From Blastocystis sp. subtype 4 (lineage: Eukaryota): DNA of 57,742 nucleotides. The stretch spans positions 1 through 57,742 of the forward strand of contig NW_014569514.1 in assembly GCF_000743755.1 (NCBI RefSeq). The letters run 5' to 3'. The notes under the pieces were generated by a model. It did not search any database. It saw nothing but the letters and a program-made list of their open reading frames with translations, and was not told the DNA's origin. Each line of letters opens with the position of its first letter. Position 1 is the first letter of the stretch. Of this stretch, positions 10,180 to 40,000 are shown piece by piece. A program made the translations under genes and the position numbers.

Positions 10180-10290
10180 CAATTCAATAAGACAATTTAT
10201 TACTGTAATATGAATCACGGTTTTTAAGGATTTCTACCAAGTGCTTTAGGCTCCTAGCAATTCAGTATACTTGGTATATATTAGTATATC

Positions 10291-13147: not shown

Positions 13148-13221
13148 TGCTCAAACGGGGGATCGAACCCCAGACCTTCGCGTTATTAGCACGATGCTCT
13201 AACCAGCTGAGCTATTCGAGC
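13148..13221 (-). tRNA. tRNA-Ile (anticodon AAT)
   Basis: GCTCGAATAGCTCAGCTGGTTAGAGCATCGTGCT-AAT-AACGCGAAGGTCTGGGGTTCGATCCCCCGTTTGAGCA; A and B boxes, cloverleaf, followed by a T5 Pol III terminator. Confidence 0.97.
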
Positions 13222-16200: not shown

Positions 16201-16400
16201 GTCGAACGACTTATGGTTATGGTCATTTGCGAGATGTTCGGAAGAAGGGTTCGATTGACAATCGAGCTGAAAGTTTTTTCTTTGCAGAAACTTCGAAATA
16301 TGCTTACTTGTTATTTAAGGATGAGAAGATTGTGGATTTAGTGAAACAAGTATTCAATACAGAAGCACATCCCTTATCAATTCTTAGTGAATCATCGTGA
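13286..16400 (+). CDS. Type II membrane GH47 alpha-1,2-mannosidase with an N-terminal LamG/ConA-like domain
   Basis: TM segment near the N-terminus; ISFWFR...WNHVVLVFD...YFNG...PLYVGG (LamG); AWGNY..AWGADE, VFEFNIRIVGG, LAELGT, ADSYYEYLLK, HLTCF, LRPE, ESFFFAETSKY, FNTEAHP (GH47). Confidence 0.9.
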
Positions 16401-16437
16401 TTTTGTTTGTTAAAGTAAAAATTCCATCAACTATGAT

Positions 16438-17172
16438 CTAGTACAAACGTGAGATCACCTGAGAAGCGAGGTCCTCCAAATCGGGATCACCACAACAACT
16501 AAAGGGAAACAAACCTCTTGATACATCCTTTGTAATTGTTTTCGATATATTGAGAGACTGAGGAGTGGGAATCGAATTCAAAAGTGAGATGAGAGTGTAG
16601 ATATAGTCATAGTCACTAATGAGATCACAGTTATCGCTTAGGTAACGCAGAAGAATTAAGTGAATATCTTGAGAATACAAGTAACTCCAAACTTCTGGTG
16701 AACGGATTCGTTTGATACTTTCGAGTAGTAAATAGCGCTGTCCAACCTTTGAATAAGTTATTCATACTAGAATTACTCCAAGTGTATTCTGAAGCAGGAT
16801 TACAAACTGCTTTGCTTTATCAATAGTACAAACAGTTCCAGTCATTGGATTAAAACACTCCAAAAGTCTTGTTTCAAAGACAGTGAGAGGATAGAGAGAG
16901 CCGTCTTTGCAAGCTTTCTCAATAAAATGATTCTCCTGATCAGTTAATGATTTGAATGATAATGATTTCTAATGATAAGTCCATTGTCCCATATTCACTT
17001 GTCCTGTAATTGGATCGATTCCACTTAGTCGTTTATATTCTTCAACAAACTGTATGTAATAGGACATATTCATTCTCACTTCATATAGCTGTTTGAGTTG
17101 TTCATTGTATCTTTCCTTCTGTGAGTTGATAATATCTTCAATCTCAGTTTGAGTTGTTTCTTGACTATTCAT
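16438..17172 (-). CDS. Hypothetical protein (N-terminal coiled coil, helical C-terminus loosely like a TFIIS N-terminal domain)
   Basis: ORFs 16969-17238 and 16438-16680 separated by plausible ~30-nt introns; no firm motif. Confidence 0.5.
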
Positions 17173-17249
17173 ATCCAAGAATAACAAATTAGAAAAGAGC
17201 TCAAATTGACCAATCCCTTTCTTTTGTTTCTTCTTCATTATTCCTTGAT

Positions 17250-18519
17250 ATGTTGGATGTTATACTTCTGATTTTAATTCTTTTCATTACTACGAATATT
17301 TCAAGGAGCGTAGAGTTTGTTTGTCATCAATGAGGAGTAGAGTTATTCGCAAGAACGTTTTTCCCTTACTGTCGTTTATACCAATCGTGCCTCTCTGCGA
17401 ATTGTTCCTACCCATCGTGCCTCTCCGCAGACTATTCCTTCTAATCGTACGTCTCTGCAAACTATTCCTCCCAATCAAACCTCTCTGCAAACTATTCCTC
17501 CCATTCGTTCCTCTTTACAGACTGTTTCTACCATACAACCTGATTCAGAACCTGTCATTTGGGGAAAACCACTGAAAGACGAGACCTGGAAGATTAGCAA
17601 AGCGCTACAAATGCTAATTGAAGGAAAACCTAGCGAACCAAATAATGTCATTATCTTCTCTCCAAATGTTTGGGCTGGATTTTGCAACAACTTTCGGACT
17701 ATTCGAGGACTTGCGCTGTATTCAATCCTAAAAGGCTTCAAATTGAGAAGTGGAGATAGTGGTTTTCAATTATAATTAGTTCTCTGGAAAGAGTATTTCG
17801 AGGTGATGAGCCCTACATTGTCTGTTCTGTCAAAGACTACTAGTCGGTCATGTGGTTTTATCGCGAACTTTTATGATAATGTTAATAATATGAATCTGCA
17901 TGGATGCTATTATACAAACGAAATCATGGATGTAACTGACCTCCTATTGAGTATCGAGGAAAATAGAAAGAAACTAGTTGAATTGGGTTTCTTTAGTGAT
18001 ATTCCGAAAAATGAAGAGGTCACTCACTTCCTTTCACTGGTATTTTTCCAATTGAATAGTGTTCTGCAAAAGGAGGTTGATGAATTCTATTCACAATATC
18101 GAAATGATTTTCTAGTTGGAATCCAGCTCCGAACTGGGGGCAAGTTGTCGGATTCTTATGAGAGTAGCATGTTTCTGACTGAGGAAAAACTACCATTAGC
18201 GTATGCATTTATTATGGAAGCAATTCGAAATACGACAATGCCAAATGTAACAGTGTTTTTGTCTACCGATTCATCGTATGTCCAAGCTGATGCTAAAAAG
18301 AATCTTCCTTACACTGTAATCAGTGCAGATATGTACAAGATTGGTCATTCATCGCCAGAGAGGCAACGTCAAAAAGTGCTTGATTGCACAAAGCGAGCCG
18401 TTGTTGATATCTATCTTCTATCTAAGTGTTCTGTTCTGATTACTACTGGTCATAGTTCATTTGGAGATACTGCAAATGCACTTTCACTTGCAACTACCAA
18501 ACTCCACCTCTTTGTATAA
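17250..18519 (+). CDS. Secretory-pathway fucosyltransferase-like protein (GT-B; NodZ/FUT8/GT37-like motifs) with a repeat stem
   Basis: Signal/anchor MLDVILLILILFIT; AGFCNNFRTI, VGIQLRTG, VFLSTDS, AVVDIYLLSKC...GHSSFG match the alpha-2/6-fucosyltransferase motifs I-III. Confidence 0.75.
17383..17532 (+). repeat. Five imperfect 30-nt tandem repeats encoding NRTSLQTIPP-like units
   Basis: NRASLRIVPT HRASPQTIPS NRTSLQTIPP NQTSLQTIPP IRSSLQTVST. Confidence 0.9.
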
Positions 18520-18558
18520 CACTACTTTTGCGGTCTTGTTTGTTGGATATCAAACCCA

Positions 18559-19308
18559 TTACTTATTGATTCCAAATGGAAGACGAGGATCACTGGCTGG
18601 TCGAAGCATTCTCCAGTAAGGAGGGAAATTCGACATAATCTCTTTTCTCTCAAGTACAAAAAATCCGTGTTTCTGGTAAAACGGGAGATTTACTTCCTTG
18701 GAACTCTCAAGATAGATTGGGTAATTGTGTTCATCTGCATACGAAGTCAGTTCTTTCATCATCTTGGATCCGTATCCTCGTTGCTTTTCTGCACTCTTCA
18801 CCCCAATTTGGAAGACATAGATATGATTGAACTAGATTCAAGTATTCTACAATCTCATACTGGTGGATGGTCACCGTTTGTCACAGTTGAAAAGTAAAAC
18901 ATCTATGAATTCAGTATCACCCACAATCACCTACTCGAGCGATTCCCCGCAACGATCCTGCGATATCATACCAATTCCAGGGTGTTAGTACCGATGAAAT
19001 GGCGTAAGAGTTACCCATTGGGCAGTTATCACGTATCCACCTACGATCATCAGGAATAAACAGGACTACCATATCATAGCACCTGTTTTCTCTTCATTAA
19101 TATACACACTACCCCCTTGTACACATGGAGGAAGAATGTTGTCATACAATCTTTGTAATCCATGCTCTTTGTGTTCATCTTTTCTTACTAATGCACACTG
19201 GACTATGGATAAAAAGATAGAAAGAAGATTACCAGGATCCTCACGGAAAGCATCTGTAAGTATTTCCTTGGCAATCGCCATATTGTTGTCATTGGAAGCC
19301 TTTTGCAT
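18559..19308 (-). CDS. GNAT-family N-acetyltransferase (puromycin-acetyltransferase-like)
   Basis: ILTDAFREDP...GAMIW; YIFQIGV...QRGYGSKMM (motif A); IYLESSKEVNLPFYQKHGF (motif B). Confidence 0.85.
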
Positions 19309-19417
19309 GTTTGTTATACTCTTCTATCAACTTGAGAATAATTGAGACGAAGAATACAGAAGAAGATCCTTGGGATCCCACAATAAAGACTTATAAGAAA
19401 CACAAAAACCATTCAAT

Positions 19418-21199
19418 TTACAGTTCTTGCTCTTCAAGATTCTCAGAAGCCACCTCTTCAACCTCTTCATCATCAAGATCACTTGCGAGTTCCATTTGAG
19501 TCTTCTCCTCCTTCTCCTTCTTTTCCTGTTGAGCACCTTTCCCTTATGAATCCAAACAAGTCATACGAGCCAATTCATTGTTCAACCACTCAATAATGCC
19601 ATCAGCAGTACGTTCAGGAATATCGACATTGTTCTCAAGAGGTTCGCCTTCACGGAAGTAACGAATAACAGGATGGTCAGTAATATTGAAACGCAACTAC
19701 AGGAAACCCACAGACTCATATCCTACACGAATCGTCTCATACCGAGCAGCATTCACAGAAGCGAAATAGACATTCAAAGGATGCTTCGCGAAGGCATCTC
19801 GATAGACCTGAGCAAACTCTCGGCATTCAGGACAACGGAAATCATAGAAGAGAACAAGAACATTCCGTTTTCCATTCAACACACGATCAACATTCTGAGA
19901 ATGCATAATTATCTGATTATCATTCCTCCTTCAAACACATACACTACGAGTTGTTTCGATTGGTTCAAATTGATGCAAAATATTGAGACGAGCAACAGTA
20001 GGAGCATACTTCTCATCAGTCACAGGAAGAGGGTCTAAAGTATAGACTGTTGAGTTAATACGATCATAAATTATGGTAGGATCATTAGCAATAATCTACA
20101 CTAATTATTACTCTCTATCAGACTCACATCCTTCATTATACTATAATAGATAGCACTATTCTTATATAACTTTCTCTCCTTTCGAACACGATGCATGATC
20201 TCTTGACGAGTTTCTACATTCCCCTACAATCAATAAGAACCTTCATTTCTACATTCAAGAACTGCTCTGCAAGTTCATCCAACACTGCATCTCGTCCATA
20301 GGTTTCATCCAGACCACCATCCACAACACGATGAGTACCCAAATGCTCATTCAAGAATAGCACGATGGAATCGACTGTGGGAAGACGAGGGAAGGTATGA
20401 TTATACTCGACATTTTCAGCAGGAAGGAAGAGCATAGAAGGAGTATCACCTACATTCAGTTCCTCACAAAGATCGTGCATCAAGGAACAATCAATCCGTC
20501 CAAAATCAATACTGGGCTCCATCTAAAGTGGATCGAAAGGAGGAAGACATACGGCAAAGGATTCAGCTGCCTTTTCGACCTGAATGGAGAAATCATAACA
20601 AGCTCGTTCGAAGGGAGACATGATTTCAATGAAGTGAGATACCGACTTGTCCTCTTTCATCTTCTCGTAAAGAGGCTTGTTAAGGAATTTAACATAACTC
20701 TTCTTAGGGATCATTCCCGTGGCTTCTGTTATGAAGTCAGTCTAGTCATAACAAATGTAAAGAATAACTACCAAAGATTCGGAGTCAAAATGCTGGACAC
20801 AACGAGTACCTCCTTTGGTAATCAATCGGAGCTCTAACTTGGCAGATTCTGGGTCCACATCACAGAATTCAGCAGCTTCAGGAACCTTATCGGTGTCAAT
20901 TGCACCAAAGATCATCTTTAACTAATCACTACTTAACTAACCCACATCATTCTCCTTCTCAAAGAAATAGGTGAGAAGATTCGGATAATACAACTGCCAA
21001 CGGCAACTTGGACACTGCGAACCACGGAAAGCAACAACAAGATATCTTTCAGATTCATCACTAAAGAATTCCTTCATATCTTCAGGTTCCAACTCGTTTA
21101 TTTCCCTAGCATCACAATCCTTAATGATAACTACATGGCCAAGTACTTCTTGCATTGTGTAATAGAAAGCAATAAAAGAGCAATAATAGCAAATCTCAT
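19418..21199 (-). CDS. ER protein disulfide-isomerase-family protein (thioredoxin domains, ERp29-C domain, further thioredoxin domain, EQEL tail)
   Basis: Signal peptide MRFAIIALLLLSITQC; CPSC and CPEC sites; GGLDETYGRDAVLDELA...RLNILHQF (ERp29-C); acidic tail ending EEQEL*. Confidence 0.8.
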
Positions 21200-21525
21200 A
21201 GTAATTAGAATAAGAAATGTTGGTTTCCATGCGAGCTCGAATGTTCGATGTGTGTTATAACCGCGGGAATTTCTCCGATGAATGGAACATCAGTAATGAT
21301 TAATGAAAAGAAAAAACCGAAAAGGATTCTAAGCCTTTGACTATGGAATGGCATGATCGTTGGATCATTCTTGAGACTCATATGTTTCAAGGAGAACTGT
21401 AATTTTCACATTCCAGACGACAAATTAAAAGAGATAAAATAGAAATTAGAAATGCTTATCATCATTTCATTCTTGTCAGTGTCACCATTTATCCTTTTAT
21501 CTTGTTGTCGTTCTTTTAACACATT

Positions 21526-22970
21526 ATGGCAAGTCGAGAGTTGATTTTGACGTTCCTAGGAACAGGAGCAATGAAACCAGCTTTTCGCCGTGGAAGTAGT
21601 TGTCTAGACATTGGAATCAATGATTAGCAAGTGCATTAGGCCTGACAATTCCAACCATTCGAGGGACGGAGAATTGGTTATTTGATTGTGGTGAAGGTAA
21701 AATATGGTATTTACTGTAAAAGGAAGGAACATTCCGACAGATGTGCATTTTCAACCGTCAAGCAAATCACCGAGTCATTAATTCCGAAGACCAGTCAAAG
21801 TTAAATGGAATTCGCTTTGGATGCAATAAGCTCAATCGGTTGTTCATTTCTCATCTTCACGGAGATCATATTTTTGGCCTCCCTTCAGTGATATTAGGTG
21901 TCAGCTTTGAGAGAGATCCAGAGTTGAACGAATCCTCACCGATTGACATTTACGGACCTTCTGGCCTAGCAGAATATCTCAGTACAGTATTTCGTGTTTG
22001 TGAATCTCGTATTTCATGCAAGCTCAATATCCACGAGTTGTGTCAATGGAATCAGCCTAGTAGTTGTAAGTGTAAGTAGGTCGCTTCACAATAGATATTT
22101 CCTCCTCTGATCCGAATTATTCTCATTTGTCTGTTCAACCAATCTATCCTAATGGTGATCGAATTTGGTGTTGTATAGACGAAGAATTCGGAACTGTGAA
22201 AGCTGGGACCGTATCACACAATATTACTACATTTGGATTCAGTTATCAAGAGAAAGATCAACCAGGAAATCTGAATGCTAGTTGTGTTTTGCCTCTCCTT
22301 AAACGGAATGAAGAGGGACTCCAGCAAATGGGATTATCTATATATGAGGTTATCCATCGCTTCAAAGTAGTATTAGGATTGAGGATTGATGGTAGAAGGG
22401 AGAAGAGTTCGTTTTGCCCGATTCGACAGTTTTAAGTCCTTCAAACACGCTTTATCTATCTCCGATGAAAAAAGGACGACATGTCTCTTTTCTCGGTGAT
22501 AATCGTTCTGCTAGACGAATATCGAATCTCATTTATGGGAGTGACATTTTAGTACATGAAGCAACGATTGGTCCAATTCCAGATGATGTTGTTCCAAAAG
22601 AAGGTTTGATTGGATCACGTTGGCTTTCAATTGGGTTGTAATTTCCAGAGTCATCAAATCAAAACAGCAAGGAATTGAGAGCTCTTGAGAAAAGTGTCCA
22701 TTCAAAGGGACACAGTACAGCTGTTGAAGCTGCTCGATTTGCAAGAGAGCTAGGGGTGAAAACGTTGGTTCTGAATCATATTTCGAATCGTTATGATTTC
22801 TTGGATGAGAAACATTATAACGAGGCTGTAGATTCTATTCGGTCAATTGCAATTGTATATGGAATGAACTGATGTTGATTTATAGAAGGAGTTTGGGTCT
22901 TCGCAAGTGTATGTCCCTCATGACTTCGATTCTGTCGTTTTAGATGGAATAAAACGACAATTGTCACTTT
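21526..22970 (+). CDS. rnz: Short-form tRNase Z (metallo-beta-lactamase); stop probably created by polyadenylation at T22970
   Basis: LTFLGTGA, WLFDCGEG, FISHLHGDHIFGLP, IYGPSG, FLGDN, LVHEAT, GHST, LVLNHISNRY, PHDF. Confidence 0.92.
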
Positions 22971-22974
22971 GTCA

Positions 22975-22982
22975 TGTTTGTT
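22975..22982 (+). terminator. TGTTTGTT polyadenylation motif of the RNase Z gene
   Basis: Exact motif with T at -5 in codon position 1. Confidence 0.8.
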
Positions 22983-23050
22983 AAAAATATCCTCGATTTC
23001 GGAACTCCAAAATCCAGAAAGTACTCCATCTTTTATAATATCCAGTGATA

Positions 23051-24104
23051 ATGTCTGCTGACCTTGCCGAGAAGATAAGAAGACAAGTTGAATTCTATTT
23101 CAGTGGTTTGAACCTGCAACGTGATAAATTCATGAGAGAGAAGATGTCTGCTGATCCTGATGGATGTAATGATGCTCTTTTCTTCTAATGTACCAGTTAT
23201 GCTTGTTGATACGTTAATGACGTTCAATCGCTTGAAGCAGTTGTCGACTGATAAGCAAGTTGTTATTGATGCTATCAAGGGATCGGATAAACTGACTGTA
23301 GAGGGTTGTGGGGTCTTTTTACGTAGTTCAATGATGACTTTACCAAAGTGAAGAGCAATATCGATTTCCAGAAACCCGAAAACAATGTCTCGTTGCGAAC
23401 TTTGCATCTTCGTGGTTTCCCTACAAGTGCTACTCTGGATGACCTCCTTGATGGATTGAAGCCTTATGGAAATAGTTTGGTTACTGTTATAATATGATCC
23501 CTAGTTCGCTTCATCGAAATGCGTCGCTATATTGGTAACAAGGCATTCAAAGGCACTATCAATGTTGAATTCAATTCCAAAGAGGAAGCAGAAGAATTTA
23601 TGAAGAAGACAATTATGTTTGCAGGGAAAGAGATTACTGACAAACAATTCCTGAGTGAACGTGAAAAGGAGATTGAGGAGAAGAGTGTAGTCACTGAAGT
23701 ATGTTGGTTACCTTTAGAAACGATACAGCTATAGTCCCAATAGTCTTGTTCAATTCAAGAATATTGGTACAGAAACGTCAAATCAAGAATTTAAAGAATT
23801 CTTGAAGCCCTACTTAAACGAATACTGTTATGTACTCCGAAAGGAAGGTGATAATCAGGGAATTGTGCGTTTTGCTACGAGTGAGGATGCAGCAAAGGCA
23901 GTTCAGGAATTGAAGGATAAGACACTGGCTGCAAAGCCTCTGAAGCTTATGATTCTTTCTGGAAAGAAGGCGAACGGTGTATGGACACAGATCAAAGCTC
24001 GTATGGTTGAAGAGGAATCGATGAAGAGAGAGCAACCAGTAGATTCAGAGAAGAGAGACCATCCTGTGGAAGAAGACAATGCTAAGAGGGTGAAGGCTGA
24101 ATAG
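23051..24104 (+). CDS. SSB: La autoantigen homolog (La motif, RRM1, RRM2)
   Basis: KIRRQVEFYFSGLNLQRDKFM, LMTFNRLKQL, RTLHLRGFP, FKGTINVEF, GIVRF. Confidence 0.9.
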
Positions 24105-24167
24105 AGACTCGTTTTTTCTCATGTTTGATAAGAAACAATAGAATTACGTTAGATCAATCAACTATTG

Positions 24168-26449
24168 TTAACTTTGGTTGAAGAACATGGCAGTGTAATT
24201 TGGCAAGGGCCAATCATGATAGTCCACAATCTTTTCCAAATTGTCAACATGGAATCGAAGTTCATTCATTGCGGGAATGATATCATCTCTACAGAAGTAA
24301 GAGATCTGCTCCTCATTCTTAATACCGTTAACTGTATCAATGACTTGATTCAGTTTATTCAAGGCCTTAATGGAGTTATTAATCTCTTCAGACATGTACG
24401 ACACATAGGACACCTGATGTGTGATGTCTTGTCCAGGCAAAGCAGCAGACAACGCACTCAAGGATGAAGAGAATTGGGTTTGGGCTCGGAATACTGCAGG
24501 AAGGATTCGTTCGGTACACAATGCACGCATCGTACGAGCTTCAACGAGAATATCCTTATTGTATTGGTCCCACAGAATGCTTTGACGAGACGAAATCTCA
24601 CTGGACTTCATGATTTGCAAGGATGTGAACAACTCAACATTCTTAGGATCGGTCCATGCCTTGATTGCTTCAGGACTAGCGACATTGTTGGGAAGACCCA
24701 GTTCAGCTGCTCTTGAGATCCATTCAGAGGAGTATCCATTACCATTGAAGATAATCCGGTTATGTTTCTTGAGAATATCAGTGACTACCTTCTGAATGGC
24801 ATCATCCAGACATAGAGTCTGCTTGTTACGTAAGATCTCATCAGCAATGAAACGGAGAGAATCAGCCATAATGGAATTAATGACCATATTACTTCGAGCA
24901 GCACTCTGATTCGAACCAACAGCACGAAATTCAAACTTATTGACTGTAAAAGCAAAAGGTGAGGTTCGATTGCGGTCATTACCCTCACGATTGATTGTTG
25001 GAATTGACGTCACACCCAAACAAAGATTTTCATCGCCCATAGTCCGAGCAACACTTGTTTTCTTCATGTAGAGCTCCAGAGCATTACTCACATCTTCACC
25101 CAGATACATTGACATGATAGCAGGAGGAGCTTCGTTTCCTCCAAGACGATGATCATTGGAAGCACTAGTCACACATGCACGAAGCAGGTCACCATACTTG
25201 TCGACAGCACGAATTGAAGCAGCCACTGAGACAATAAATGGAATGTTTTTCTCGGGATGAGGACCCAACTCAAGGAATGTTGGTGTCTCCTTACTGCACA
25301 TGGACCAATTGTTATGTTTACCACTTCCATTCACTCCTTCAAATGGTTTCTCATGGAATAATGCTTTGAGACCATGTCGACGACCCTGCTTCTTCAAGAT
25401 ATCCATTCCTTGGAGATTCTGGTCCGTTGCAAGAATACTGCTACCATACAGAGGAGCGAGTTCGTACTGTCCAGGAGCAACTTCACGATGACGTGTAGTC
25501 GAAGGTATACCAAGCTTCCACATCTGAATCTCCACATCATGAATGAAGTTCAATGATTTTGTTGACATTTCAGCGAAGTACTGATCATGAAGCTCTTGTC
25601 CCTTTGGAGGAGAACAGCCAAACAGAGTTCGTCCGGTAAGCTTGAGGTCCGGTCGCTTATCATAGTACTCTCTCTGGATCAAAAAGAACTCTTGCTCAAT
25701 GCCACAGTTCACATTGATCTCCGTCTGAGGGTGACCAATGATCTTGAACAATCGATCGGCTTCTCGAATCAACACTTCTTGTGATCGAATGAAAGGGATC
25801 TTCTGATCTAGCACATCTCCCGTCCAGGATAGGAACACCGAAGGGATGTAGAGAGTGCCACCGTTATCGTGTTTGACAATCACAGGGTTACTGTTGGGAT
25901 CCCACACTGTAAAGCCGCGAGCCATATGGGTCTCACGCAAACCTCCATTCGGGAATGAAGAGGCATCAGGTTCACCCTTGATCAGCTTCTTGCCAGTGAA
26001 GTTACTCACTGCCTTCCCATTTACCCGAGTAATAACTAAACTTGAGAACCCCATCAAACCTATACAAGCATCTTGTTTCTGGGCCGTCACACCAGAAAGA
26101 GGTTGGAACCAATGACAGAAGTGGGTGACACCAAGTCCTTCGGCCCACTTCATCATAGCTTGAGCAACAACATCAGCCGTCTCCGGATCTAGTTGAATAT
26201 CAGGTTTCTTTCTGGCTTCTAGGACTCGCTGATAGCTGGATATCAAGTTACTTTCGAAATACGTACGCATATTTCGGGACCGACTTCTGAAGCATGTCAT
26301 CGTTGAAGGAGTACATACCAAAGACATCATCAATAAGGACAGAGGAAGAAGAGGAGACCATACGGCGTGTCATTCCAGAGAGAGTCTACCAATGTTCAAC
26401 CTCCAGCTGCTCTTACTGGTCTAGTGAGTAGACGGAGGCTGCTCAGCAT
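24168..26449 (-). CDS. glnN: Glutamine synthetase type III with a putative mitochondrial targeting presequence
   Basis: THFCHWFQPL, GEPDASSFPNGGLR, GIEQEFF, HREVAPGQYE, HEKPFEGVNGSGKHNNWS, HRLGGNEAPPAI, DRNRTSPFAF, FEFRAVG; N-terminus MLSSLRLLTRP/TLSGMTRRMVSS. Confidence 0.95.
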
Positions 26450-27171
26450 GCTGGTTACCAATAAAGAAAATAATGGTTAAGTGGATGATGTCATCATTTG
26501 TAATAGTCAGAAGACTCTTGATAATCAAGCTGGTTGGTTCATACTGGACCGTTTGTTTAACTCCCGACTCATTTGATTGGCTAAGGACTTATTTCTTTTG
26601 TTTCCTAAAAGTGTTCGTATCTCGACAACTCCCACACCATCTGCACCACAATACCACTTGAATTGAAGGCCATATGAAAGAGAACCACCCACCAAAAACG
26701 GGACAATTTTGCATGTTTAAGACTTTTCTTTTTACGATCGAACGAGTTTCGATGTTTTCCGTTCAAATTGCCACGAATACACATATCAACTCATCTAATT
26801 CACGGAAAAGACTCTCACTCCCCTCAGAACGCTCGAACCTCAAAAAGGGGGGCGACTCGCACGATGGTAAGTATATTATGTGTAGTTTGATCCAACAAGT
26901 CTTTTCTGCAAGTAGGAACTTCTTTGAGTTTGTTGGGCGTGATCAACTGGAATATGAAGGATAGAGTTCTGTACAACGGGAGTTCAGAACTAAACGATGG
27001 TCTGAAGAAAATCCATTTTTCATTTGTTCTATCCACTGGTCTGATCACACAATCCATAGTTGGACCTAAAGTTTTGTCCATTTCTTCTATTTTTGGTTTC
27101 CAAACTAATTGTGGTGATAACGGTTGCTGACGTGCGAATGGGGCCTATGGCACCCACTTAGTATTTCGACA

Positions 27172-28416
27172 ATGAGCTCAAGTAGTGAAAATGGAGACAA
27201 ACAGCGAGTTAGAAATCGACGTGTTTCGTTTGATTATGCTCCAAGTGTGATAGATATCCAAATGAATGTTGGGCTATAAATACTGATTCAACATAGAGCC
27301 CACCAATTCTGACGATTCGTAGAAGGCCTAGTCATGTAAACGAGGTAGATTCGTGTTTTGGTCAGATTACATCGTAGCTGTCTATAGAACAGTTATATGA
27401 AGAGGCTCAACGATTGAAGTTGATTACAAGAAAAGATAGCCTGTTGAATATAGGAGGGGGTGATGATCCTAGAGGCGAAAAGCCTAAGAAGAAGCATCAT
27501 AAGAAGAATAGCAAGCATACATCTGGATCTCTTGGTGAATCTAATTCCGAAGCTTCAGATACTGATCCTTTTGTTTTCAGTAAAGAGGGTTTAATTGAAC
27601 AGTGATGGTGATATACTAGACTTTGTGTGTGAGTGTAGCGATGAGGAACTCCGAAGAATGGTCTCAAATGTATGGCGTGATTCCATGTTGGAGCGAATGA
27701 ATCTTGTTGGTATGCCCTACTATCACTCTTTATTTCAGGTTTGGAATATACTGCCGAGAGCTTTGATAATACAAATTTAGAAGAAGTCTATAATCTGTTC
27801 AAAGAGGTCACATATCCTTATACATGAAATATACGATCCCTTCACTGTACCCAATCAGCAGTCATCTACCTATTGTTGGGGAAGGAACACGAAGAGGAGA
27901 TGCAAGATGATATGTATCTATCATTGAATTTCCCTGCGTGTATGACAAAAGCAAATTTGATTCACTCGATCAAAGAGAATGCAGGAGTAGTGAAGAAGAA
28001 GACACGAAGAGAGCTTATTGATGAATTAGAGACAATCATTCTTTTTGCAATTCGTGATGATAGTAGAGGTACGAACCAGATTTAATTCAAAGATAAATGC
28101 AAGGGATATAACCAGTTGTTCTATTCTCCTTCCGAATATGTGGAAACCAACTTCGATGATGATGGAGAACTAAAGAGGGAACTAAAGAAACGAGGACTCC
28201 CTTGTCCTAAGTGAGGAAACAAGAAGATACTGACTTTTAGGAATATGCCTCAGCGCAAGAAGAAACTAATTGCTGTAATACGAAATGAGATGGGTTTGGA
28301 GATGTCTAAAGCGTTTGCTACTGTAACACGACTAGAACTGGAGTTCTTTAGGTATAAATCCTCCAGTGAAGATATCACAGATTTGTTCACACAGCTGTAT
28401 CATATCGTTTCTCAGT
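27172..28416 (+). CDS. Hypothetical protein with an RVxF (PP1-docking-like) motif and a SAP-like segment; contains an AT-AC intron; stop possibly poly(A)-created at T28416
   Basis: MSSSSENGDKQRVRNRRVSF; ELKRELKKRGLP..KKKLIAVI; exons link in frame through short introns. Confidence 0.6.
27812..27850 (+). other. U12-type (minor spliceosome) AT-AC intron, 39 nt
   Basis: 5' ATATCCTT, branch-point-like TCCCTTCAC, 3' AC; removal deletes an in-frame TGA and restores EVT/QSAVIYLLLGKEHEE. Confidence 0.8.
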
Positions 28417-28453
28417 ATCCTGTTTCTTGCAACAAAACAACATACAGTAACAT

Positions 28454-29831
28454 TCAATAATCCTTAACAAAGTAGGTCTCACCACATTGGCACTGACATT
28501 GGTTCCCCACACTCTGACAATAGCATGGCTGATCTTTATTTACATGAACATAGTCAATTCCACATGATACTTCAGCAACAGTAAATATATGACCACTCAC
28601 TCCCTTAACCAATGTGTTTCCAGCTAAATCTTTAAAGGCATTCTCACCAAAGGACATCGAGTACATTCCAGGCTCGAATTCCTCAGAGGGCTTTATCATA
28701 CACTCGTCATTGGAACAGGAAACCTCTTTAGAACTCTGAATATTCACCTCGATGTTGTTTTTCTCACCTGTAAACGAGATGACTCCAGCATTTGGAACCA
28801 CCATCTCACTAAAGGCAATACGAATTACAACCTTCTTAGGAACATTTGTCTTAAAGTTCTTGGGATGGACGAACAGAATGTAGGGCTTGTCACTGTCTAT
28901 CAATCAATTCTCAATCACAATATCACCAGACTCCACCGTGAAGAAATAATCATTTCTTGTACCACACTTGCTTCCACTCTGGCTGAGAACAATACCAGCA
29001 TTAAATATCACTTGGTACTTTTGCAGACCCACAAGATTGAGGTCATAGATCACAATCGACATATGATCTGGACCCAACACAACGTGCTTTGTGTCGGTTA
29101 CATCGACAGTAACACTGCTACGAGGATGATCCATCACAGAGTGAAATTCAATTGTTCCCATACCAATGTGAACAATTGAATCAAAAGCAATTGTCACGGT
29201 AGGCTTCATTGGAATATCAACAGCATCGAATGGAGGATAACACCTGGAAGGAACCACATTAGCAGCAAAATCTATATGTCAGCAAGCATCTTCAGCTACT
29301 ACCACTGATCGTGTAAAAAACGATACTCTTATATTCTAGGCCAAAGGCCTTCTCATTGATGCCAATTCCCTTGATACTAGATAAGGTCTTAATGGTATTT
29401 CCTTCAAGACGCTGAGATAGATAAAACACATAAGCAGTATCAGGTTCAAGCACATCACCAAGACAACTAACAATAGGGAACTCCAAAGTGTATTCATTCA
29501 CCATTTTGATACAAGAGGCAGGAATCTCTGTCGAAGTACCTCTAATCTGGTTTAGAAGATAGAAGAAGCCTGAAAAACTTTGAGAAGAAGGAACAGCATC
29601 ACTGAATTGAAGGTGAATCGTAGTATCAAGAAGTACGTTTACAGCCGACTGGGACGGTGAATACTTTTTAATATAAAACTCGTTACTATCTATAATATAA
29701 GTAAAAATCCAAATAAACGTACCAGACTCAAATGTAATAGGATCTTCACAGTTCACATCATCAGCACTGCAAGAAGATTGGGCAACTGATGCAAGGCAAA
29801 TGAGGGCCAGAACTATGGTAATACTCTTCAT
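28454..29831 (-). CDS. Secreted protein with about 3 SbsA/Big_5-type Ig-like domains and a six-Cys C-terminal module
   Basis: Signal peptide MKSITIVLALICLASVAQS; repeats P..S..NV....I.LQFS / P....V....V.IAF / FKDLAGN; C-terminus CGIDYV..N....CYC......CQCQCG. Confidence 0.8.
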
Positions 29832-29984
29832 GGCTAACCGAGATTTGACCTAAGGATAAACTAACGTCCCACTTAAAATATGTCCCCTATTTATACAGGA
29901 AGAAACTACCGTAATTCGGGTAATACCAATATTATTACCGGATTATTTATCGACTTCAATTCTCTTTGCATATTTCTAGCGGAA

Positions 29985-31797
29985 ATGATCGTTCCGAAAC
30001 ATGACGGATACTCAGTCGTCAACTTGATGATGGACATGTTCCTCGTGAATTGGCAATGGACTCACTCGTAGGGTTATGGTCATGTCCATTGTAGTCTTTT
30101 TAAATGTTTCTCTTCGATTAGCGCCAGAAACTGTGACATTTATCATGCGAAGTTGATGAAATAGGCACTGATAAAGAAGATTACATCGACAGCGTCACCT
30201 ATTACACGATTGTATGAAAGGATGTATTATCCTTCGGTTCAAGATCGAGCCATGAAGCTTGTTTCCGACTCGGGGGCTAAACAAACACAAATTCGGATTG
30301 GAACAGTAGCAGAGGTGAAAAAAACGACGAATGCATCATCTGTTCCGTATTTCATTCGTAAGAGCGTCTTTGAAGTAGCAAAAGCCAAACAACTTATTTC
30401 CTCTGCTACTACTGTGGAAAATATCGATGTTCCTGCATTGATTCGTCACTCTGCCACCATCAAGAAGTACTATGGGAATAATGAAGAAGCGTACGTTCCT
30501 CCAAAGGGTTGTACTGTTTATATATATTCTTTGAAAGCTAGTTATTCACAATGATGCTTATCCTTATGATATCTCGCTAGTAACCGTGATTCGGTTTGTA
30601 TTTCCTCGTGTTTTGATCTCTAGAATCTCTGATATCGATAGAATTGTCAAGATGAGCAACTACTGGTCAGGGTACTTTTATGTCACCTTCATTAGAATTA
30701 GACCGATCAATGTCTGTATCTTTGCTGAGGACTATTCTTCTTCCTATCCAACCATTCAATATGTCTTGTCCTCGGATGCCTTTCAAAGCCGAATCACTCT
30801 TACTGTCGTGTATTCTGATTTCTACAATGTGCTATTCCCTGCCAATATGTTGAAAAACATCGCTATCTCTACTGTCTTTACTACACATTTCATTGAAATT
30901 GATTCTACCATGCTTCCTTCTTGTTTCAATTCCTTCTTGATTTAATTTTTAGCTCTTCTTTATGATAAATTGAGAAAGATTCCGGTGACAGTTCTGTATG
31001 AGCCGATTAATCTTGTGACTATTCCTGTGTTTTACACAAAGGAGTGATGATGAAAGACTAGAATAACTTGTAGAGAGGCTGATATTGGAAATATTAGACA
31101 GTGTCTTCGTGAGAAGAAATGTTTCCCAAAGTACTTATCAGTGATGGTTTGAATGATCGATGTGGATAATTCTTAGAAGGAATGGTTGGAACCTAGTTCT
31201 GCTTCCTCTTTTATGGGACAAATGAGTGATTTGGAATCAAATTCTGTCTAGTTGGCTTCAGGCGAGTCTATAATTCCTAGTTATATGATGCGTCGTCACA
31301 ATTCCTTCGATATTCTCTATGATGAGAACTTTCTCATGAGAGGATATGATGATGTGGAATTGGTTCAACACTTGTACCATGAGAGTACAGGATCAGAAAA
31401 AGTATGAGGTTTAGAGTTTGTTTTCTACTTGCTTATGGATGAGTATTTCCTGGATTACTCCATTCGGTTGTAGGGGATGAAATTGAAGACAAAATCTAGG
31501 GAGGTTGAAAATGCCGTACTACAGAAGGATCCCGAGTTTAAGGCTCAATATGAAGAGTTCCTCAGTCATATCCCAGAAAGAGAATCTGGAATTGAAGCTG
31601 GATCTATCGAAACAGATCCATTACTTGCTGCATATGTAGAGTATTGGAGAAAAGATCAGGAGATGAGAGAGAAGGAGGAGAATGAATTGACTCATCTTTT
31701 AAATACACAGAAGAATCATTTTGATCTTCTAACCTGGGATCGACGGGTTACAGAGATTGTGTCAAACCGAGAAACACGAAGGAAAGAAAGTTATTAA
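29985..31797 (+). CDS. GT49 (LARGE/B4GAT1-like) glycosyltransferase; start approximate
   Basis: DISLVT..SDIDRI...WSG/PINVCIF; FPANMLKNIAI...TTHFIEIDSTMLPS; EP..M...YDENFLMRGYDDVELVQHL. Confidence 0.7.
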
Positions 31798-31847
31798 TGT
31801 GATTGTTATGTACTATTGTTTGTAACAGTTCCTTCGTTCATCATAGA

Positions 31848-33836
31848 ATGCTTCGGTTCCTTTCACGATTCGGGGAATCTGCTAAAGGAAGACGATTCTT
31901 CTCTGGATATTTACCGTCTGGGATAAGAAAAATGCCTACAAACCGGTTTCATCTGAGAGGGACTCTTCCAGGCTTTCAAGAAGTGAATCGGAACTTACCA
32001 CTTGCTTTTACGCAAATTCGATCTGTTTCATCCATTCATAAGAAGTACATGAAGATTGAGTAGCGACAGTATCCTAGTATTACGCCTAGTGTAAAGAAAA
32101 AGAAGGAGCGAAAGGAGAAAATGCCGAAAGTTGTCCAAATGAAGCATTTCTCGGTTGCTTTAGTTGGAAGAACGAATGTTGGCAAATCTACCTTATTTAA
32201 TCGACTTGTCGGGAGAAAAGATGCTCTTGTGAGCAAAGAGGCTGGAACAACTCGGGATCGCAGAGAGGGTTTAGCTCATATTAGTGGATTGGAATTCACA
32301 TTGATCGATACTGGTGGTTATGTTGTTAGCAATAAGGACATTTCGATGACAGAACAACAGATTAACAAACAAACCGAATATGCGGTTGAGAAAGCAGATA
32401 TCATATTTTTCCTTATCGATGGAAAGGTTGGAATTACTGGAGAGGATCGTGGAATTGCGGCGTAAGATTTGAGGAGTGGATTAAGGAGTAGTTGGCTAAG
32501 AACCAAACAGAGCGTTAATAATTTCCCAATCTATGTCGTCGTGAACAAGGTAAGAGAAGAATTTTAGATGATATGTAGACGGAAGGACTCTTTACGAAAG
32601 TAGATGCTAATGGAGACTGTGCTCCTTGGGAAGACATGAAAGCCCAAATCTATGAACTAGGTTTAGGTGAACCTATTGGTGTCTCGGCAGAACATGGAGA
32701 TGGTCTCTTAGACATCTTTGATGTTTTGTACCCATATGGAGACTTGCTTAATTTACGAAAGAAAGAGGATCGAGAACGATATGAAGCCAGTCAGCAGCAA
32801 ATTTCAACCGATACACAACCATATGACATTCGATTTAATGTAGATGCAGTTGGAATTCTTTTGGAGATTGAGATTTAGGAGGAAAAGGATCGTGATGATG
32901 AGATTCTTCAACTCACAATTCTTGGGATCCCAAACAGTGGAAAATCCACCTTATTGAACACTTTATTAAAGACTGATCGATTTATTACTGGAAGTATTCC
33001 TGGATTGACACGGGATACAGTTAGTACTGAAGTTGAGTATAAAGGACGTAAGATTCGACTTGTTGACACTCCTGGTATTCCAAAAGCAGATGGTGTGTTG
33101 CCTCCATCACTCAATTCGCTCAGCATCTATCATGCTCACAAACAGCTAGATTATGCTCATGTTGTTGCTCTGATTCTGGACGGAAGTCGAATTCTCACAA
33201 AGCATGATCTGGCTCTTGCTAAGGAGATTCTCGATAAGGGTCGAGGTCTCTTCATCGTTCTGAATAAGAGTGATGTGATGCAGTCGACGGCGGTTGCTAA
33301 GAAGCAGCTGGTCACCTACATCGATCGTTACATCCCAATGGTATGATTTGAAGAGTGGATGGAACTTAGGCTGGAAAAGTACCTTCTATCGTTGTATCAG
33401 CACTCTATGGGAAGGGAACAGATGCAGTGTACCCACTAGCTTTAGATGTGTTTGATCGCTGGCGAACTCGGATTTCAACGGGTATTCTCAATCGATGGTT
33501 GGAGGCTGTGACCTTCCGACATCCTCCTCCACGAACAAGTACTGGAAAGGAGGTAAAGTTAAAGTTAGTCTGAGGGATCAGATTGATTCATAGATATCTA
33601 ACGCAAACGAAAGCGAGACCACCAAGCTTTGTATTATTTAGCAATGTGAAAGACATTGACCGAACCTATCTTCGATACCTAAGTTCCTGCTTACGGGAGG
33701 AATTCAACTTGGATGGAATTCCGATTCGAATTTTTGTAAGAACAGGCGATAATCCCTACACAGTAGGTATCGTATTTTTTCGTAACGTTAAGAGCCACAA
33801 AGTCTGAAAAACCAAAGGGCAACTGTCTTTTACTAG
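31848..33836 (+). CDS. der: Der/EngA double GTPase, organelle-targeted (stop at 33807 or 33836 depending on the last acceptor)
   Basis: GRTNVGKSTLFNRL, GTTRDR, DTGG, VNK, SAEHG; GIPNSGKST, GLTRD, DTPG, LNKSD; YLTQTKARPPSF..YLRYL..LREEF.LDGIPIR; Arg/Phe-rich presequence. Confidence 0.93.
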
Positions 33837-34040
33837 TCTTGTTTGTTTCAATCGAGAATGGAAAAACTGTGGCTGCAAAAGAATTACGGGAATTTTTAAA
33901 CACTATGCGAACTTGGGTGATGAATCGTCTTACCTGAGAAATGGTTCTTTTACCAGATTTTCTAAGATAGAACATTTACTAACAAGGACAATGTTTTCTG
34001 TAGGAGCGAGATGCTGTTTTTGTGGTTTCTTACCTTCTAG

Positions 34041-37000
34041 ATGATACTTGTTGCGTTGTTGCTTCTATCGTGTTCTACAGCTTTTACAGTACAGTGTACG
34101 ACTCCTGATATGAATACCTATTCACCTCAGGTTTCGTTTGTCTGTACCTTCTCTGAGTCTGTCTCTTTGAATCATGTGGAGAGAATCTTTGTTCCTAGCC
34201 TTGTATCAGTTTCTCCTCTTAGTGGAGAACATACTGTTTACACGGTTGTTGCTGAGGTGCAAGATGACACTCTCGGAGAAATTTCTCTCCTTCTGGGAGA
34301 GGGCGCTTTCGTCAAGGGTGAAGAGCGTTCTCCTGAGTATATGGTGACAGTTACTTGTTCTAACTGTGTTTTGGGTCTCATGTCTAGATGATTTTGTATA
34401 TGAACATGTCGATGTTGTTGCTACTATCAACCATCTTTCTGATAGACCTGATTTCGCTATCATTTACATCTCTGGAGGAATGACGGTTCGTCCAAACTTC
34501 CAAAGCATTAGCGAAATTGCTGTTCTTCCTCCAAGTGTGGACGTGATTAGTGTTGAAGCGACCCTAACCTCGTATGTGGTCAAGGTGTTCGTGAATGATC
34601 CCAATTCTCTGCGTGAGGCTACCATTCGGATCAAGGAAGGAGTGATCAGTTCATACTGGGGTCAGAAAACTAATATGGAGAAGGATGTGTCTATTGATGT
34701 GCCTCCTCTGGATCATAGTGAATCTACTTTCAAACTTTGGCCCACCTATGGAACGATTTACACTTCTTCGGATGAGTTCCGCTATCCTATTCCTACTGGT
34801 GGTTGTTCTGTTGATGTACAGTCATTCTCTGGAACGAATATTGAAATCGTGCGTGTCGAGAATGATGAGGTCTCACAGTATCTGGTTGCTCGTTTAATGG
34901 ACCCTTCGATCCCTGGTGGCATTAGCTTCATTGGTTATGCCCCTGACACTTGCACTTCGTACAACTATCCTGTGGAGCCGAGCGTGATGGTTGTGAAGGA
35001 AGCAGTGCCTACATATGAGATTACTTACAAGACCGGTACCTCTGGATGTGTGGATGTGAATGTACTCTTCAGTGCTCCTGTCAAGTTTGTGTCCGATGCC
35101 TATTTCAATATTACTTCTGTCTCTCAAGTGGCTCCATATGTGATAAGTACTCCAGTACATCCTGCAGGTCCTGAACACTATTTTGGCCTGGAAGCCACGA
35201 TGTGTATTAGTTCTACAAGCGATACTTTGTTGGTCTCGATGAATCGTGATGCTGTGAAGACTCCTTCTGGTGCTCTGATCCCTGAGCAGGAACCCATCTC
35301 TATCTTGGTATCGAAGTTGACTCTGGTTGTGAGACTGCTTCCTGACGACCTTCCTGAGTCCTCTCAGAACATGACTTACGTCATCCGTCAGCCGACTGTT
35401 ACCTTGTCCTTCGGCACTGACACTGATTCCTCTATTAACATGAATCGTTGTGACTTCTCGAAGGCTTTCACTTCTGACTATAACGTTGCTCTGTCAGTGA
35501 CTATGGAAACCTCGCGTCTGAGAGTGGCTGCTACTACCGAAGCTATCGATCACCATGTGATTGCCTTCCATGCCGATCGTGTTACTTGCAGTGGTTCCTT
35601 CACTGTTGAGTTCCTTACCCAAGAGTTCAAGTATGCCTATGATCCTCCCTTCCGTCCTGGTGACATTATCATCACTCGTGTCAATTCATATTACTCTGCT
35701 GAGTTCGACTTTGTGCCTCTTCGTAAGATTTTCTCATGGAACAAGATCTACTTCACTGATGCTGGTTGGGTGAACGAATATTATGGATTCATTGATCATG
35801 GTTCTGATGGTTACATCAGCTGGACTCCTAAGACTGATGTGAATGCAGGTACGGTTCAGCAGTGGAGTTATAAGGCTATGACCGACAAACTGGATCCTGA
35901 GATTCCTTTCGTCGTGAACACGGAGTATTCCTTCAACTATGAGCAACATGGTTTCCTGTTAGATTTCCAGGATAACTTGTTCATTTATGCAACTGGCAGT
36001 TGTGATACGAACTCTGTTTATGATGACTTCGGCCATATCAAATTCATTTTCGGTGTGTACTGGTCGTCTTCAGAATGGGCTCCTGAGACCTTCAATTACT
36101 TGGACATCACCTCTGAGTATTCTGCATTACCTCAGGTTCTGACCAATTATAGTATTGCTCTGGGCTTGGAGTCTAAACCTGTCCCTCGTGGAGTGAACTA
36201 TATGTCAATTGATCAAAATCACTTCTTCACTTTCACGTATACGTACTATCACATCATTGAGATGATTGTCGATAAGCAGAACTGGTTGACATCTCAGAAG
36301 GATCGATTCATAACAGCACCTCAAATCGCCTACATGGAACGTCCTATGGATTTCACAGTGGAGCAGGTCGATACAAGTGTCTGTTTCAACTTCGTGACAC
36401 CGTATACAGTCACACGGAATGTGGACATTGCAACGTGGAATATGTCGAGAATACGTCTCTACTTCAACGACGAGCCTTTGATCCCTGAGATTACTTACTC
36501 ATCTGCTGGTTATTGTGTGAACTATGGTAATCTTACGACGGAGGGTATAGTTCGTCTGGAGATGGAGAAGGGAGCTTTCGTCTATACAACAACCTCTACA
36601 AAGACTCCTGTGTCATTTGAGTGTGTGGCCTACAGCATGGAGATTATGATATATAATGTCCCTGAACTCATTGTGGACTACGCGACGGACTCTGTACTTC
36701 AGAAGGTGACTATCACATCCACTATTCCTTGTGTTGAGTGGGGATTCATCTCTGCATTCAACAGCAGGGCTGTACATATTTCTCAGTCCTCGACAGAGAC
36801 CGTTTTGGCTTTCACTGCTGTGGATGCAGGTGCGAAACTCTATCTTGATAATGGTTTCTGTAAGACTGCAGGACAGCGGGAGTCTGAACGACTTCTCCTT
36901 CCCACTCTCACGGTGGCTCCTATGTCTGGTCGCGAGACAATATTGCGTGAGGCCTTCTTTAAGGAGGTATTGAGCAAGCATGAGGTGAACACGATTAGTG

Positions 37001-40000
37001 TGAAGGCTCCTGATGTGGACTGGACATTGTCGACTGATCGTTTGGAAGATATGAACCCTGAGTGGAGTGAGTTTGATCCAGCGACTGGAGTCATAGAGTT
37101 AACATTCCGTTTCCCGATGGAAAATGGAAAGAAGACTGTAGTCTTGCCTCAAGGTCTATTTATCAAGAATCAGACCCTCTCACAGGGAATGACTCTTTCC
37201 TATTGGATGCAACAGGGTGAAGTCGATGTGATGCAATCTCTCACACTTCCTTGGGCTGAGTCGGTTCGTGAAGAATCTGTCCGAGAGGCAGTGTTCAGTG
37301 ATGGCTTTGTTGTGTCGAGTGGCAGTACTCCTACAAATCTGCTTCGTTTCGAGAACATGTGTCGTAGTATTGGTTACAAGATGGGTGCTTCCATACCTAC
37401 ATCTGTTAGCGTTGCTCTTATGGATGGAGACTGTGTGTATGGAGTACATGAGAATAGGATTATGGATCCTTATACTAATACGAACTCTGGATTTGAAGAT
37501 ACTTTGGAATTCGATTTCCTTCCTCCGATGGGTGAGGCTATGCTTGTAGATGAGATTACTAGCGAGAAACCTGAAACGAATCGTTTCTACTGGAATCATT
37601 CTCCTGTAGTGGCTCTGTTTTTCAATGAGCCCCTTGTTCATTTCAATGAGTCACTTCTTCTAATCACTGTCGATCATTGTGATATCGTCTCCGCCAGCCA
37701 TACGATTGAAAATGATCAGAGTATCATTCACTATAGCCTTTCGAACTGTGAGGAAGGACCTATTCGTGTGGATGTCGTGGATAACATCGTATTGCAGGAT
37801 AATGACGACAACCTCTGTGTGTCTCATGAGTGTATTAGCAATTTCCCGTTGTTGTTCGAGACAGACTATACAGCTCCTAACATCATTATCAGTACTGTTG
37901 AAGCATTATATGGAAGCGAGATGGATGTTTCCTTCGAAATCTCGGAGCCTGATACAACATTCACATGCAATTCAATTGGTATTGCTGTGGAGAAAGTGAA
38001 CTTCGTGGTTACTCAGGTTGATAAGTCAACTTGTCATTACTCCTTCACTCCTGAACCTGTGAATGGAACATACATTCTCTTGTCTGTACCTGCTGGTCGC
38101 TTCGTGGATAAGGCCTTGAATCCTAACGTTGCTTTCAAGCCTTTCGGTATCCCAGTCCTCAACAAGGGTGCTCAGATCTCTGTAGTTGCTCCTACTTTTA
38201 CGAATATGATGAAGACAGAGTTCACTCTCTCCCTCAACTACACATGGCTTTGTCCCAACTATGAGCACTTGTTCCCTTCAACCTTCCAGTATGATCGTAC
38301 TCTGGCCCATATTGAGAAGAATGACGAAGGTCAAGTCGTGGATGGAACCTTCATTCAGACTTTCTCTATCACTTTCCTGAACTTTGATGCGACTCATAAG
38401 GACCGCCACAGAAACATCCCTATTTACATTCCTTCCAGAGTGTGTATCAACCCACTCGGTCTCTACAACCAAGGAGTGACCTTCTATATGACTTTCGACA
38501 ATACGCATACTGTGCCTTCCGTCACATTATTAGACCGAGAGTCTGATGATAAAGACTTCACTGTGGATATCACTTTTAATGAGGTTCGTAGTTTTGGAGA
38601 GAAGGAGCCTAAGGAATATGTGGTTGTAAGTTATGCCAATCAGACGTTGAATTGTAATGTGACTCGTCATACTGAGGCCGTCTCTTTCACTTACAGAGTC
38701 AAGTGTCCTCTGAATGAAGAAGGAAACGTAAATGTGACTATTCTTGATGGTGCTGTGGTGGAAGTAACAGGTACTCCTTCACAGACCTTCTCGAAGTTAC
38801 TGCGCATTGATAGATATCCTCCTATGGTGGTTATATCTTTTACTAAGGGAAACACTTTTGGTCCTGATATTATCGAGCTCCCAATGCTAATGAATGCCAC
38901 AGAGGTGATGACTGTACCACAAGATAAGAATTCCAGCTGCTTCGGGATAGACCACGAGAAAGGCATTAAGGTCCAGGTGAGTCCTCTTCCTTCTCAGGTT
39001 GCGAACTGGGAAGTCATGGTGACAATGATTCGTTTGTTCTCGGAGCTCCAAGCTGGTTCGTTCAATATCTACATTAAGGAGCATTGTATGAAGGATGAGG
39101 ATGGGAACTACAACGTCCAATCGAATAACCTGACCTTCTACTATGACTTCACAACTCCTAACGTTACTCTAAATTGTCCTTCTTCGACTGTATGGCGGAG
39201 TATGACTATTACTGGAACGATGGACGAACCTTGTCACCCACTCACGGAAGCCAATATCGTTATGCCGGATGAAAACTGCTCTATAGATAGCGGTAGTCTT
39301 AGTTCGACTGAGACGGCCTTCTCCTTTACGGTGTCTTGCAGTGTGATTGGTAACTACCAGTTCGGTCTGCGTGGTGTGAAGGATCTGGTGGGTAACGAGG
39401 CTCGGATCATAGGTGTGTGTAATGGAAACTTTACGGTGAATGGACCTAGAATTGATTACGAGATTCGAAATCTGGTTAATGATAGATATATCAACACTCC
39501 TTCGTTCACAATCTATCTATCTGTTTCTTCTTGTGCTTCAATGAATCTTACCGAGAATAATGTGATCGTCGAGAATGTGAAGAACCTGCAAAGGACACGA
39601 ATGGCTACTTGCCAATGGAGATTAACTGGAAGTGCCGAGGAAGATGGTCGGGTGCTGATTCGTGTATTATCAGGTGCTGCTATAGATATATATGGAGCCC
39701 CTTCCCTTTCGTTGTTGATTGACGACTTCTTTAGCTATCAAGCCAAGCCTGAGGTGACCACTATATCACGTAGTCTTCTGCCTTCAGGTATGACAAGTGA
39801 TGTGTATATCTGTTATGATACGAGTATTGTGCGTGGTGAGGGACATGTGCTGACAGATGGAGGATGTTCGGATGCTTCGGTAGATCGTGTTGAAGGTAAC
39901 TGTGTGTACATGCAAGTGGCAGTGACAACTGGAGAGCGTTGTTATCTGTATTTGGAAGAGGATCTCGTCAAGACTGCCTGGGAGTTGAGTTCAGTTGGTC

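What the first reader, a model, noticed from the sequence alone, without database searches (positions are those of the whole stretch)
27812..27850. 39-nt AT-AC minor-spliceosome intron
Seen: AC|ATATCCTTATACATGAAATATACGATCCCTTCACTGTAC|C. It has a canonical U12 donor, a CCTTCAC branch site only a few nt from the AC acceptor, and an internal in-frame TGA that must be removed. The nearby GT-AG alternatives (52 or 55 nt) shift the frame into a stop. Established: U12 introns are rare and usually much longer; very short ones have been reported in Blastocystis. It implies a minor spliceosome able to act on a minimal substrate.
Basis: partly seen in the sequence, partly recalled or inferred. Interest (0 to 1): 0.7.

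Follow-up and report, generated by a model that had tools for sequence, protein, structure and literature searches.

The report
Tiny minor-class intron in Blastocystis
A 39-base piece of a gene in the gut protist Blastocystis is cut out of the transcript and carries the signals of the rare "minor" intron class, so it is likely removed by the minor splicing machine; such tiny introns are already described in this genus, but this one is missed by the public gene models.

Summary
Real, and ordinary for its genus. The 39-nt segment 27812-27850 has the described signals and an in-frame TGA. One transcript-like contig skips exactly 39 nt here, plus six GT-AG introns of the same gene. The organism is Blastocystis, labelled subtype 4 by a matching public protein. 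An ortholog from the subtype-1 cluster, 47% identical, has a 39-nt AT-AC intron at the same position and phase, with the first 8 and last 12 bases identical and 4 of 19 middle bases shared. Published work already reports 346 U12-type introns and all four minor snRNAs in subtype 1, with a median of 39 nt (PMC5608401, PMC10639083). This intron is therefore the typical size, not an extreme. What is new is small: it is absent from the published table, and all six named public proteins seen for this gene start after it or stop at it. Splicing by the minor spliceosome is inferred, not shown. The scan noted short AT-AC introns in other genomes before, none in this one.

The parts
27812..27850 (+). 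39-nt AT-AC intron, phase 2, sixth of eight introns in the host gene model
   Evidence: Skipped in the X1 contig; same position, phase and length in L004/L005
27812..27819 (+). U12-type 5' splice site ATATCCTT
   Evidence: Sequence; 8 of 8 bases identical in L004; same start as published subtype-1 minor introns
27825..27827 (+). In-frame TGA inside the intron; retention would end the protein here
   Evidence: also present in L001-L003
27839..27845 (+). Predicted branch-site motif CCTTCAC, predicted branch A at 27844 (-7)
   Evidence: identical in L004; the branch nucleotide itself was not mapped
27849..27850 (+). AC acceptor; only three bases lie between the branch motif and AC, with no pyrimidine tract
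   Evidence: Sequence; last 12 intron bases identical in L004
27739..27811 (+). Upstream exon
   Evidence: Retained in the X1 contig; aligns to the L004 ortholog
27851..28062 (+). Downstream exon
   Evidence: Retained in the X1 contig; 50% identical to L004
27172..28460 (+). Host gene model: 345-aa protein of no assigned family, eight introns (27268-27296, 27345-27377, 27443-27472, 27589-27619, 27710-27738, 27812-27850, 28063-28092, 28211-28240)
   Evidence: Seven introns shown by the X1 contig. The first intron and the start codon are inferred from alignment to L004 and P0126. No Pfam family reaches its cut-off in the four pieces scanned.

Best explanation
This is a real 39-base AT-AC intron in a Blastocystis gene, removed from the transcript, and it is likely excised by the minor (U12-type) spliceosome. 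Shown: the segment is missing from a transcript-like contig, its removal restores one reading frame, and its two ends are conserved in another subtype while its middle is not. Inferred from established minor-spliceosome biology (recalled): U11 pairs with ATATCCTT, U12 pairs with CCTTCAC and exposes the A at -7 as branch point, U6atac replaces U11 for catalysis, and the first AC after the branch site is the acceptor. It belongs to the genus-wide class of 37-47-nt minor introns that sit about 9 nt above the 30-nt major introns. If it were retained, the TGA would cut the 345-aa protein roughly in half.
For:: X1 contig (1194 nt, mean word depth 48, 0 other letters) skips 39 nt here and six GT-AG introns of 29-33 nt. 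X1 has poly(A)/poly(T) ends at four places, two of them 5 nt before TGTTTGTT, as described for Blastocystis; the L004/L005 ortholog (160 of 342 aligned residues identical) has all eight introns at matching columns and phases. The AT-AC intron keeps runs of 8 and 12 identical bases at its ends, against 2-3 for each of the seven GT-AG introns; 4 of 19 middle bases match. Of the three equivalent cuts, only AT..AC has the same ends in both subtypes (read); 66 of 336 published subtype-1 introns starting ATATCC were seen; median 39, minimum 37; 10 of the 30 contain CCTTCAC (counted by eye); four snRNAs and seven proteins of the minor spliceosome listed for subtypes 1 and 7.
Against: The RNA support is one assembled contig from one run whose RNA label is a guess; no raw reads were available, so efficiency and minor junctions are unknown. 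The contig alone cannot fix the cut within 2 nt. No minor snRNA was seen for this subtype: none in the window, no genome held, and the published table covers subtypes 1 and 7 only. The ortholog's intron has no RNA support here. The branch A was not mapped and no intronIC score was run.
Confidence: 0.93

Rival explanations
1. The intron is real but is removed by the major (U2-type) spliceosome, as a rare U2-type AT-AC intron or a relic after loss of the minor machinery in this subtype.
For: Minor snRNAs were not seen for this subtype. U2-type AT-AC introns exist in other organisms (recalled). PMC10639083 reports 11 of 12 aligned minor introns lost between subtype 1 and B. hominis, so turnover in the genus is fast.
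Against: The 8-nt donor and 12-nt 3' end are conserved across subtypes while GT-AG introns of the same gene keep only 2-3 nt. The length fits the minor class, not the 29-33-nt class that holds 28 of 30 listed X1 introns.
Confidence: 0.04
2. The segment is coding and the TGA is read through, recoded, or a sequencing error.
For: The length is a multiple of three, so the frame continues past the single TGA.
Against: The X1 contig lacks the segment. Three other DNA contigs carry the same TGA. The ortholog, if unspliced, stops at a TAA at a different position, and its middle is not conserved.
Confidence: 0.01
3. The 39-nt gap in the contig is an assembly or template-switch artefact, or a non-spliceosomal excision with AC..GT or CA..TA ends.
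For: Only one contig shows it, and the cut can slide by 2 nt.
Against: The shared repeat is only 2 nt. The gap coincides with a motif set expected 0.06 times by chance. Only the AT..AC placement has conserved ends in L004.
Confidence: 0.02

Closest known systems
U12-type introns of Blastocystis sp. subtype 1 (Gentekaki et al. 2017, PMC5608401; Larue and Roy 2023, PMC10639083)
   Same: ATATCC start, CCTTCAC-type branch motif a few bases before the end, AT-AC ends, 39 nt equal to the reported median.
   Different: This intron is in subtype 4, whose sheet in the published table has no intron starting ATATCC (all 336 hits fall in the subtype-1 sheet). Its subtype-1 ortholog is also not listed: the two 2017 models carry only the last one or two GT-AG introns. 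It is phase 2, whereas 49% of subtype-1 minor introns are phase 0.
Canonical U12-type AT-AC introns of animals and plants
   Same: Same donor class, AT-AC ends, conserved branch motif, no pyrimidine tract (general features recalled).
   Different: Far shorter; Blastocystis has the shortest mean minor-intron length in a survey of over 3000 genomes. The branch motif has C where the textbook consensus has A, and sits closer to the 3' end than is usual in vertebrates (both recalled, not tested here).
Blastocystis major (GT-AG) introns
   Same: Same gene, similarly compact, branch region close to the 3' end.
   Different: Mode 30 nt; 28 of 30 listed X1 introns are 29-33 nt; only 2-3 terminal bases conserved between subtypes.

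Membership tests
U12-type (minor) spliceosomal intron | Extended conserved 5' splice site of the ATATCCT type | tested here: met
   ATATCCTT at 27812-27819, 8 of 8 identical in L004
U12-type (minor) spliceosomal intron | Conserved branch-site motif near the 3' end, no pyrimidine tract | tested here: met
   CCTTCAC at 27839-27845, three bases before AC; identical in L004; motif only, branch A not mapped
U12-type (minor) spliceosomal intron | Removed from mature mRNA at the predicted ends | tested here: met
   One X1 contig skips 39 nt; AT..AC is one of three equivalent cuts and the only one with ends conserved in L004
U12-type (minor) spliceosomal intron | Host encodes U11, U12, U4atac and U6atac | tested here: inconclusive
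   None in the 57.7-kb window; no genome held; listed for subtypes 1 and 7 in S1 Table of PMC5608401
U12-type (minor) spliceosomal intron | Splicing depends on the minor snRNPs; lariat forms at the predicted A | not testable with these tools
   Needs knock-down or lariat sequencing
U12-type (minor) spliceosomal intron | Classified as minor by a scoring tool such as intronIC | not tested
   Not run; compared directly with published Blastocystis introns instead
Blastocystis short minor-intron class | Host is Blastocystis | tested here: met
   Best named relatives of a window enzyme are Blastocystis at 90% and 75%; a subtype-4 protein is 100% identical over 50 residues of the downstream exon; 16 TGTTTGTT sites in 57.7 kb
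Blastocystis short minor-intron class | Length about 37-47 nt, median 39 | tested here: met
   39 nt; median 39 in PMC10639083 and in 66 of 336 published rows seen
U2-type AT-AC intron | AT-AC ends with major-type donor and without the U12 motifs | tested here: not met
   Both U12-type motifs are present and conserved

The most novel reading that the evidence does not exclude
Subtype 4 carries a working, uncatalogued set of minor introns, and the published counts for the genus are too low because gene models break at them. Their 37-nt floor (minimum of 66 rows seen), fixed branch A near -7 and identical 39-nt length across two distant subtypes mark the physical minimum that a compacted U11/U12 particle can bridge, about 9 nt more than the major spliceosome needs in the same cell.
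Probability: 0.4. Interest if true: 0.45.

Novelty: new member of a known kind. Interest (0 to 1): 0.22.

Why it matters
The class is known, so the biological surprise is low. The practical gains: transcript support for a minor intron in a subtype not covered by the published minor-spliceosome table; a corrected 345-aa gene that six named public proteins split or truncate at this intron; and a pair of 39-nt orthologous introns whose conserved ends show which bases matter. That pair would be a clean minimal substrate for asking how small a U12 intron can be.

Tried and rejected
No whole genome was held, so no genome-wide search for minor snRNAs or introns was possible. Rfam on the window found only SRP RNA and a tRNA at curated scores, and two weak chance-level hits. 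No run was on record as RNA; X1's RNA label is a guess. DNA runs X2-X4 do not bridge the intron, which says nothing either way. A read-through query of the two flanking exons found no homolog among 97 candidates. Pfam gave only sub-threshold hits, e.g. SAP domain at E 0.018; one control in that call was given on the wrong strand and is ignored. The protein atlas gave no answer, so the host protein's function stays open. The loose U12 patterns are at chance level. The second strict match (56878-56925) was rejected as probably antisense to a 29-nt GT-AG intron of a minus-strand gene (not RNA-tested). Two string searches for this intron or its ortholog in the published table found no identical row. 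P0147, an insect low-complexity protein (35%, seven stretches), was treated as spurious among the 10 hits.

Full report
Observation. Window 27812-27850 is 39 nt, begins ATATCCTT and ends AC. CCTTCAC lies at 27839-27845, its A at -7. The frame of the upstream exon runs into TGA at 27825-27827 and resumes in the same frame after the segment. The 52- and 55-nt GT-AG options frameshift into a stop; two longer in-frame GT-AG options (78 and 90 nt) also exist. A strict donor/branch/AC pattern gives 2 matches against 0.06 expected in 100 shuffles; loose patterns are at chance level.

Transcript evidence. Four runs hold the region; none is on record as RNA, and X1 is guessed to be. One X1 contig (1194 nt, depth 48, no other letters) skips seven segments of 33, 30, 31, 29, 39, 30 and 30 nt. 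Six have GT..AG ends; the 39-nt one can be placed three ways, AC..GT, CA..TA or AT..AC. X1 behaves as RNA: over 14200-34199 it shows 12 listed gaps (8 more not shown), 11 joints, all GT-AG on one strand or the other, and four poly(A)/poly(T) ends. Of 30 listed intron lengths 28 are 29-33 nt; the others are this one and a 41-nt GT-AG intron. DNA runs X2-X4 do not bridge the site.

Organism. The best named relatives of the window's aspartate aminotransferase are Blastocystis proteins at 90% and 75%, then other taxa below 60%. TGTTTGTT occurs 16 times in 57.7 kb, near the one per 2.8-3.1 kb published for Blastocystis. Two of four poly(A) ends lie 5 nt before this motif and two before variants of it. 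A public protein labelled subtype 4 is 100% identical over 50 residues of the downstream exon. Window GC is 41% against 39.6% published for subtype 4.

Conservation. L001-L003 are identical across the intron, TGA included. L004 and L005 encode an ortholog whose fragment clusters with subtype-1 proteins. My model of L004 aligns at 160 of 342 residues, with all eight introns at matching columns and phases; I placed the L004 introns by eye, and public proteins P0126 and P0161 show the same joins. The sixth intron is again 39 nt and AT-AC. Its first 8 and last 12 bases are identical to the window's, and 4 of 19 middle bases match. The seven GT-AG introns keep only 2-3 bases at each end. Unspliced, the ortholog stops at a TAA at the intron's start, not at the window's TGA. 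Only the AT..AC placement has the same ends in both subtypes.

Mechanism. Shown: removal, frame restoration, selective conservation of both ends. Inferred from recalled minor-spliceosome biology: U11 reads the donor, U12 the CCTTCAC motif with branching at 27844, and the nearby AC is the acceptor. Not shown: snRNA genes in this subtype, the branch nucleotide, or dependence on the minor machinery.

What is known. PMC5608401 (passages, S1 Table, parts of the intron spreadsheet) reports 346 U12-type introns in subtype 1 and lists four snRNAs and seven proteins for subtypes 1 and 7. PMC10639083 (passages) finds 253, 77% AT-AC, mean just under 42 and median 39 nt, the shortest in its survey. PMC11347168 (passages) gives 0.29% minor introns for B. 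hominis. In the spreadsheet, 336 rows start ATATCC; I saw 66 (first 30, last 36), with median 39 and minimum 37. All rows seen, including the last, lie in the subtype-1 sheet, so none is in the subtype-4 sheet; the file is cut within the subtype-7 sheet. Other papers were seen only as search listings; these five searches showed no paper on minor introns of subtype 4, but subscription journals are largely missing and other supplements were not read.

What is new. This intron is not in that table. The two 2017 subtype-1 models (OAO12753, OAO13162) start after it and list only one and two GT-AG introns. KAK8822739 (161 aa) ends exactly at it, and the next accession, KAK8822740, is the same sequence as OAO12753. 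KAM7458592, the subtype-4 model XP_014529123 (92 aa) and KAK8794099 also start after it. That makes six distinct named proteins, five starting after the intron and one ending at it. The full protein is about 345 aa, with no Pfam family above cut-off in the four pieces scanned. Of the 10 hits among 1.84 billion representatives, two clusters are named Blastocystis, seven are unnamed and one insect hit looks spurious.

Verdict. Observation confirmed; interpretation supported; a new member of a known kind. Confidence in a U12-type intron 0.93; interest 0.22.

Noticed in passing
window 27172-28460 (+), host gene: Public models are split or truncated at the AT-AC intron: five named proteins start after it and one ends at it. 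The subtype-4 model also reads two extra residues at intron 7, where the X1 contig removes 30 nt from 28063.
   Followed up: yes
window 27214-27231 and 28140-28270 (+): The host protein has a conserved RRVSFD stretch near its start, resembling an RVxF phosphatase-1 docking motif (recalled), and a weak SAP-domain hit (E 0.018, below cut-off). Function not established.
   Followed up: partly
window 56878-56925 (+): Second strict U12-like match, 48 nt; it overlaps a likely 29-nt GT-AG intron of a minus-strand gene and is probably chance.
   Followed up: partly
window 34000-34040 (+): 41-nt GT-AG intron skipped in X1, the only other listed intron outside 29-33 nt; it has no U12-type donor.
   Followed up: partly
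window 18532, 22970 (+); 24142, 28443 (-): Poly(A) ends in X1; the two plus-strand ends lie 5 nt before TGTTTGTT, the two minus-strand ends before variant motifs.
   Followed up: partly
window 28443-28460: The host gene's stop codon (28458-28460, +) overlaps the 3' end of the convergent minus-strand transcript, which ends at 28443.
   Followed up: no
window 56057-56343 (-) and 13148-13221 (-): SRP RNA gene (Rfam Plant_SRP, 114 bits) and a tRNA gene.
   Followed up: no
window 34348-46116 (+): A 3922-codon open frame with no stop, unusual in an intron-dense genome; looks like a large repetitive surface protein (by eye).
   Followed up: no
window 10285-13107 (+), 24168-26369 (-), 54731-55912 (+): Neighbours: an AAA_11/AAA_12 helicase (UPF1-like by recall), a glutamine synthetase III-like frame (by recall) and an aspartate aminotransferase.
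   Followed up: partly
PMC5608401 intron spreadsheet: Many subtype-1 minor introns end in AG rather than AC: 11 of the 30 rows are AT-AG (counted by eye).
   Followed up: no
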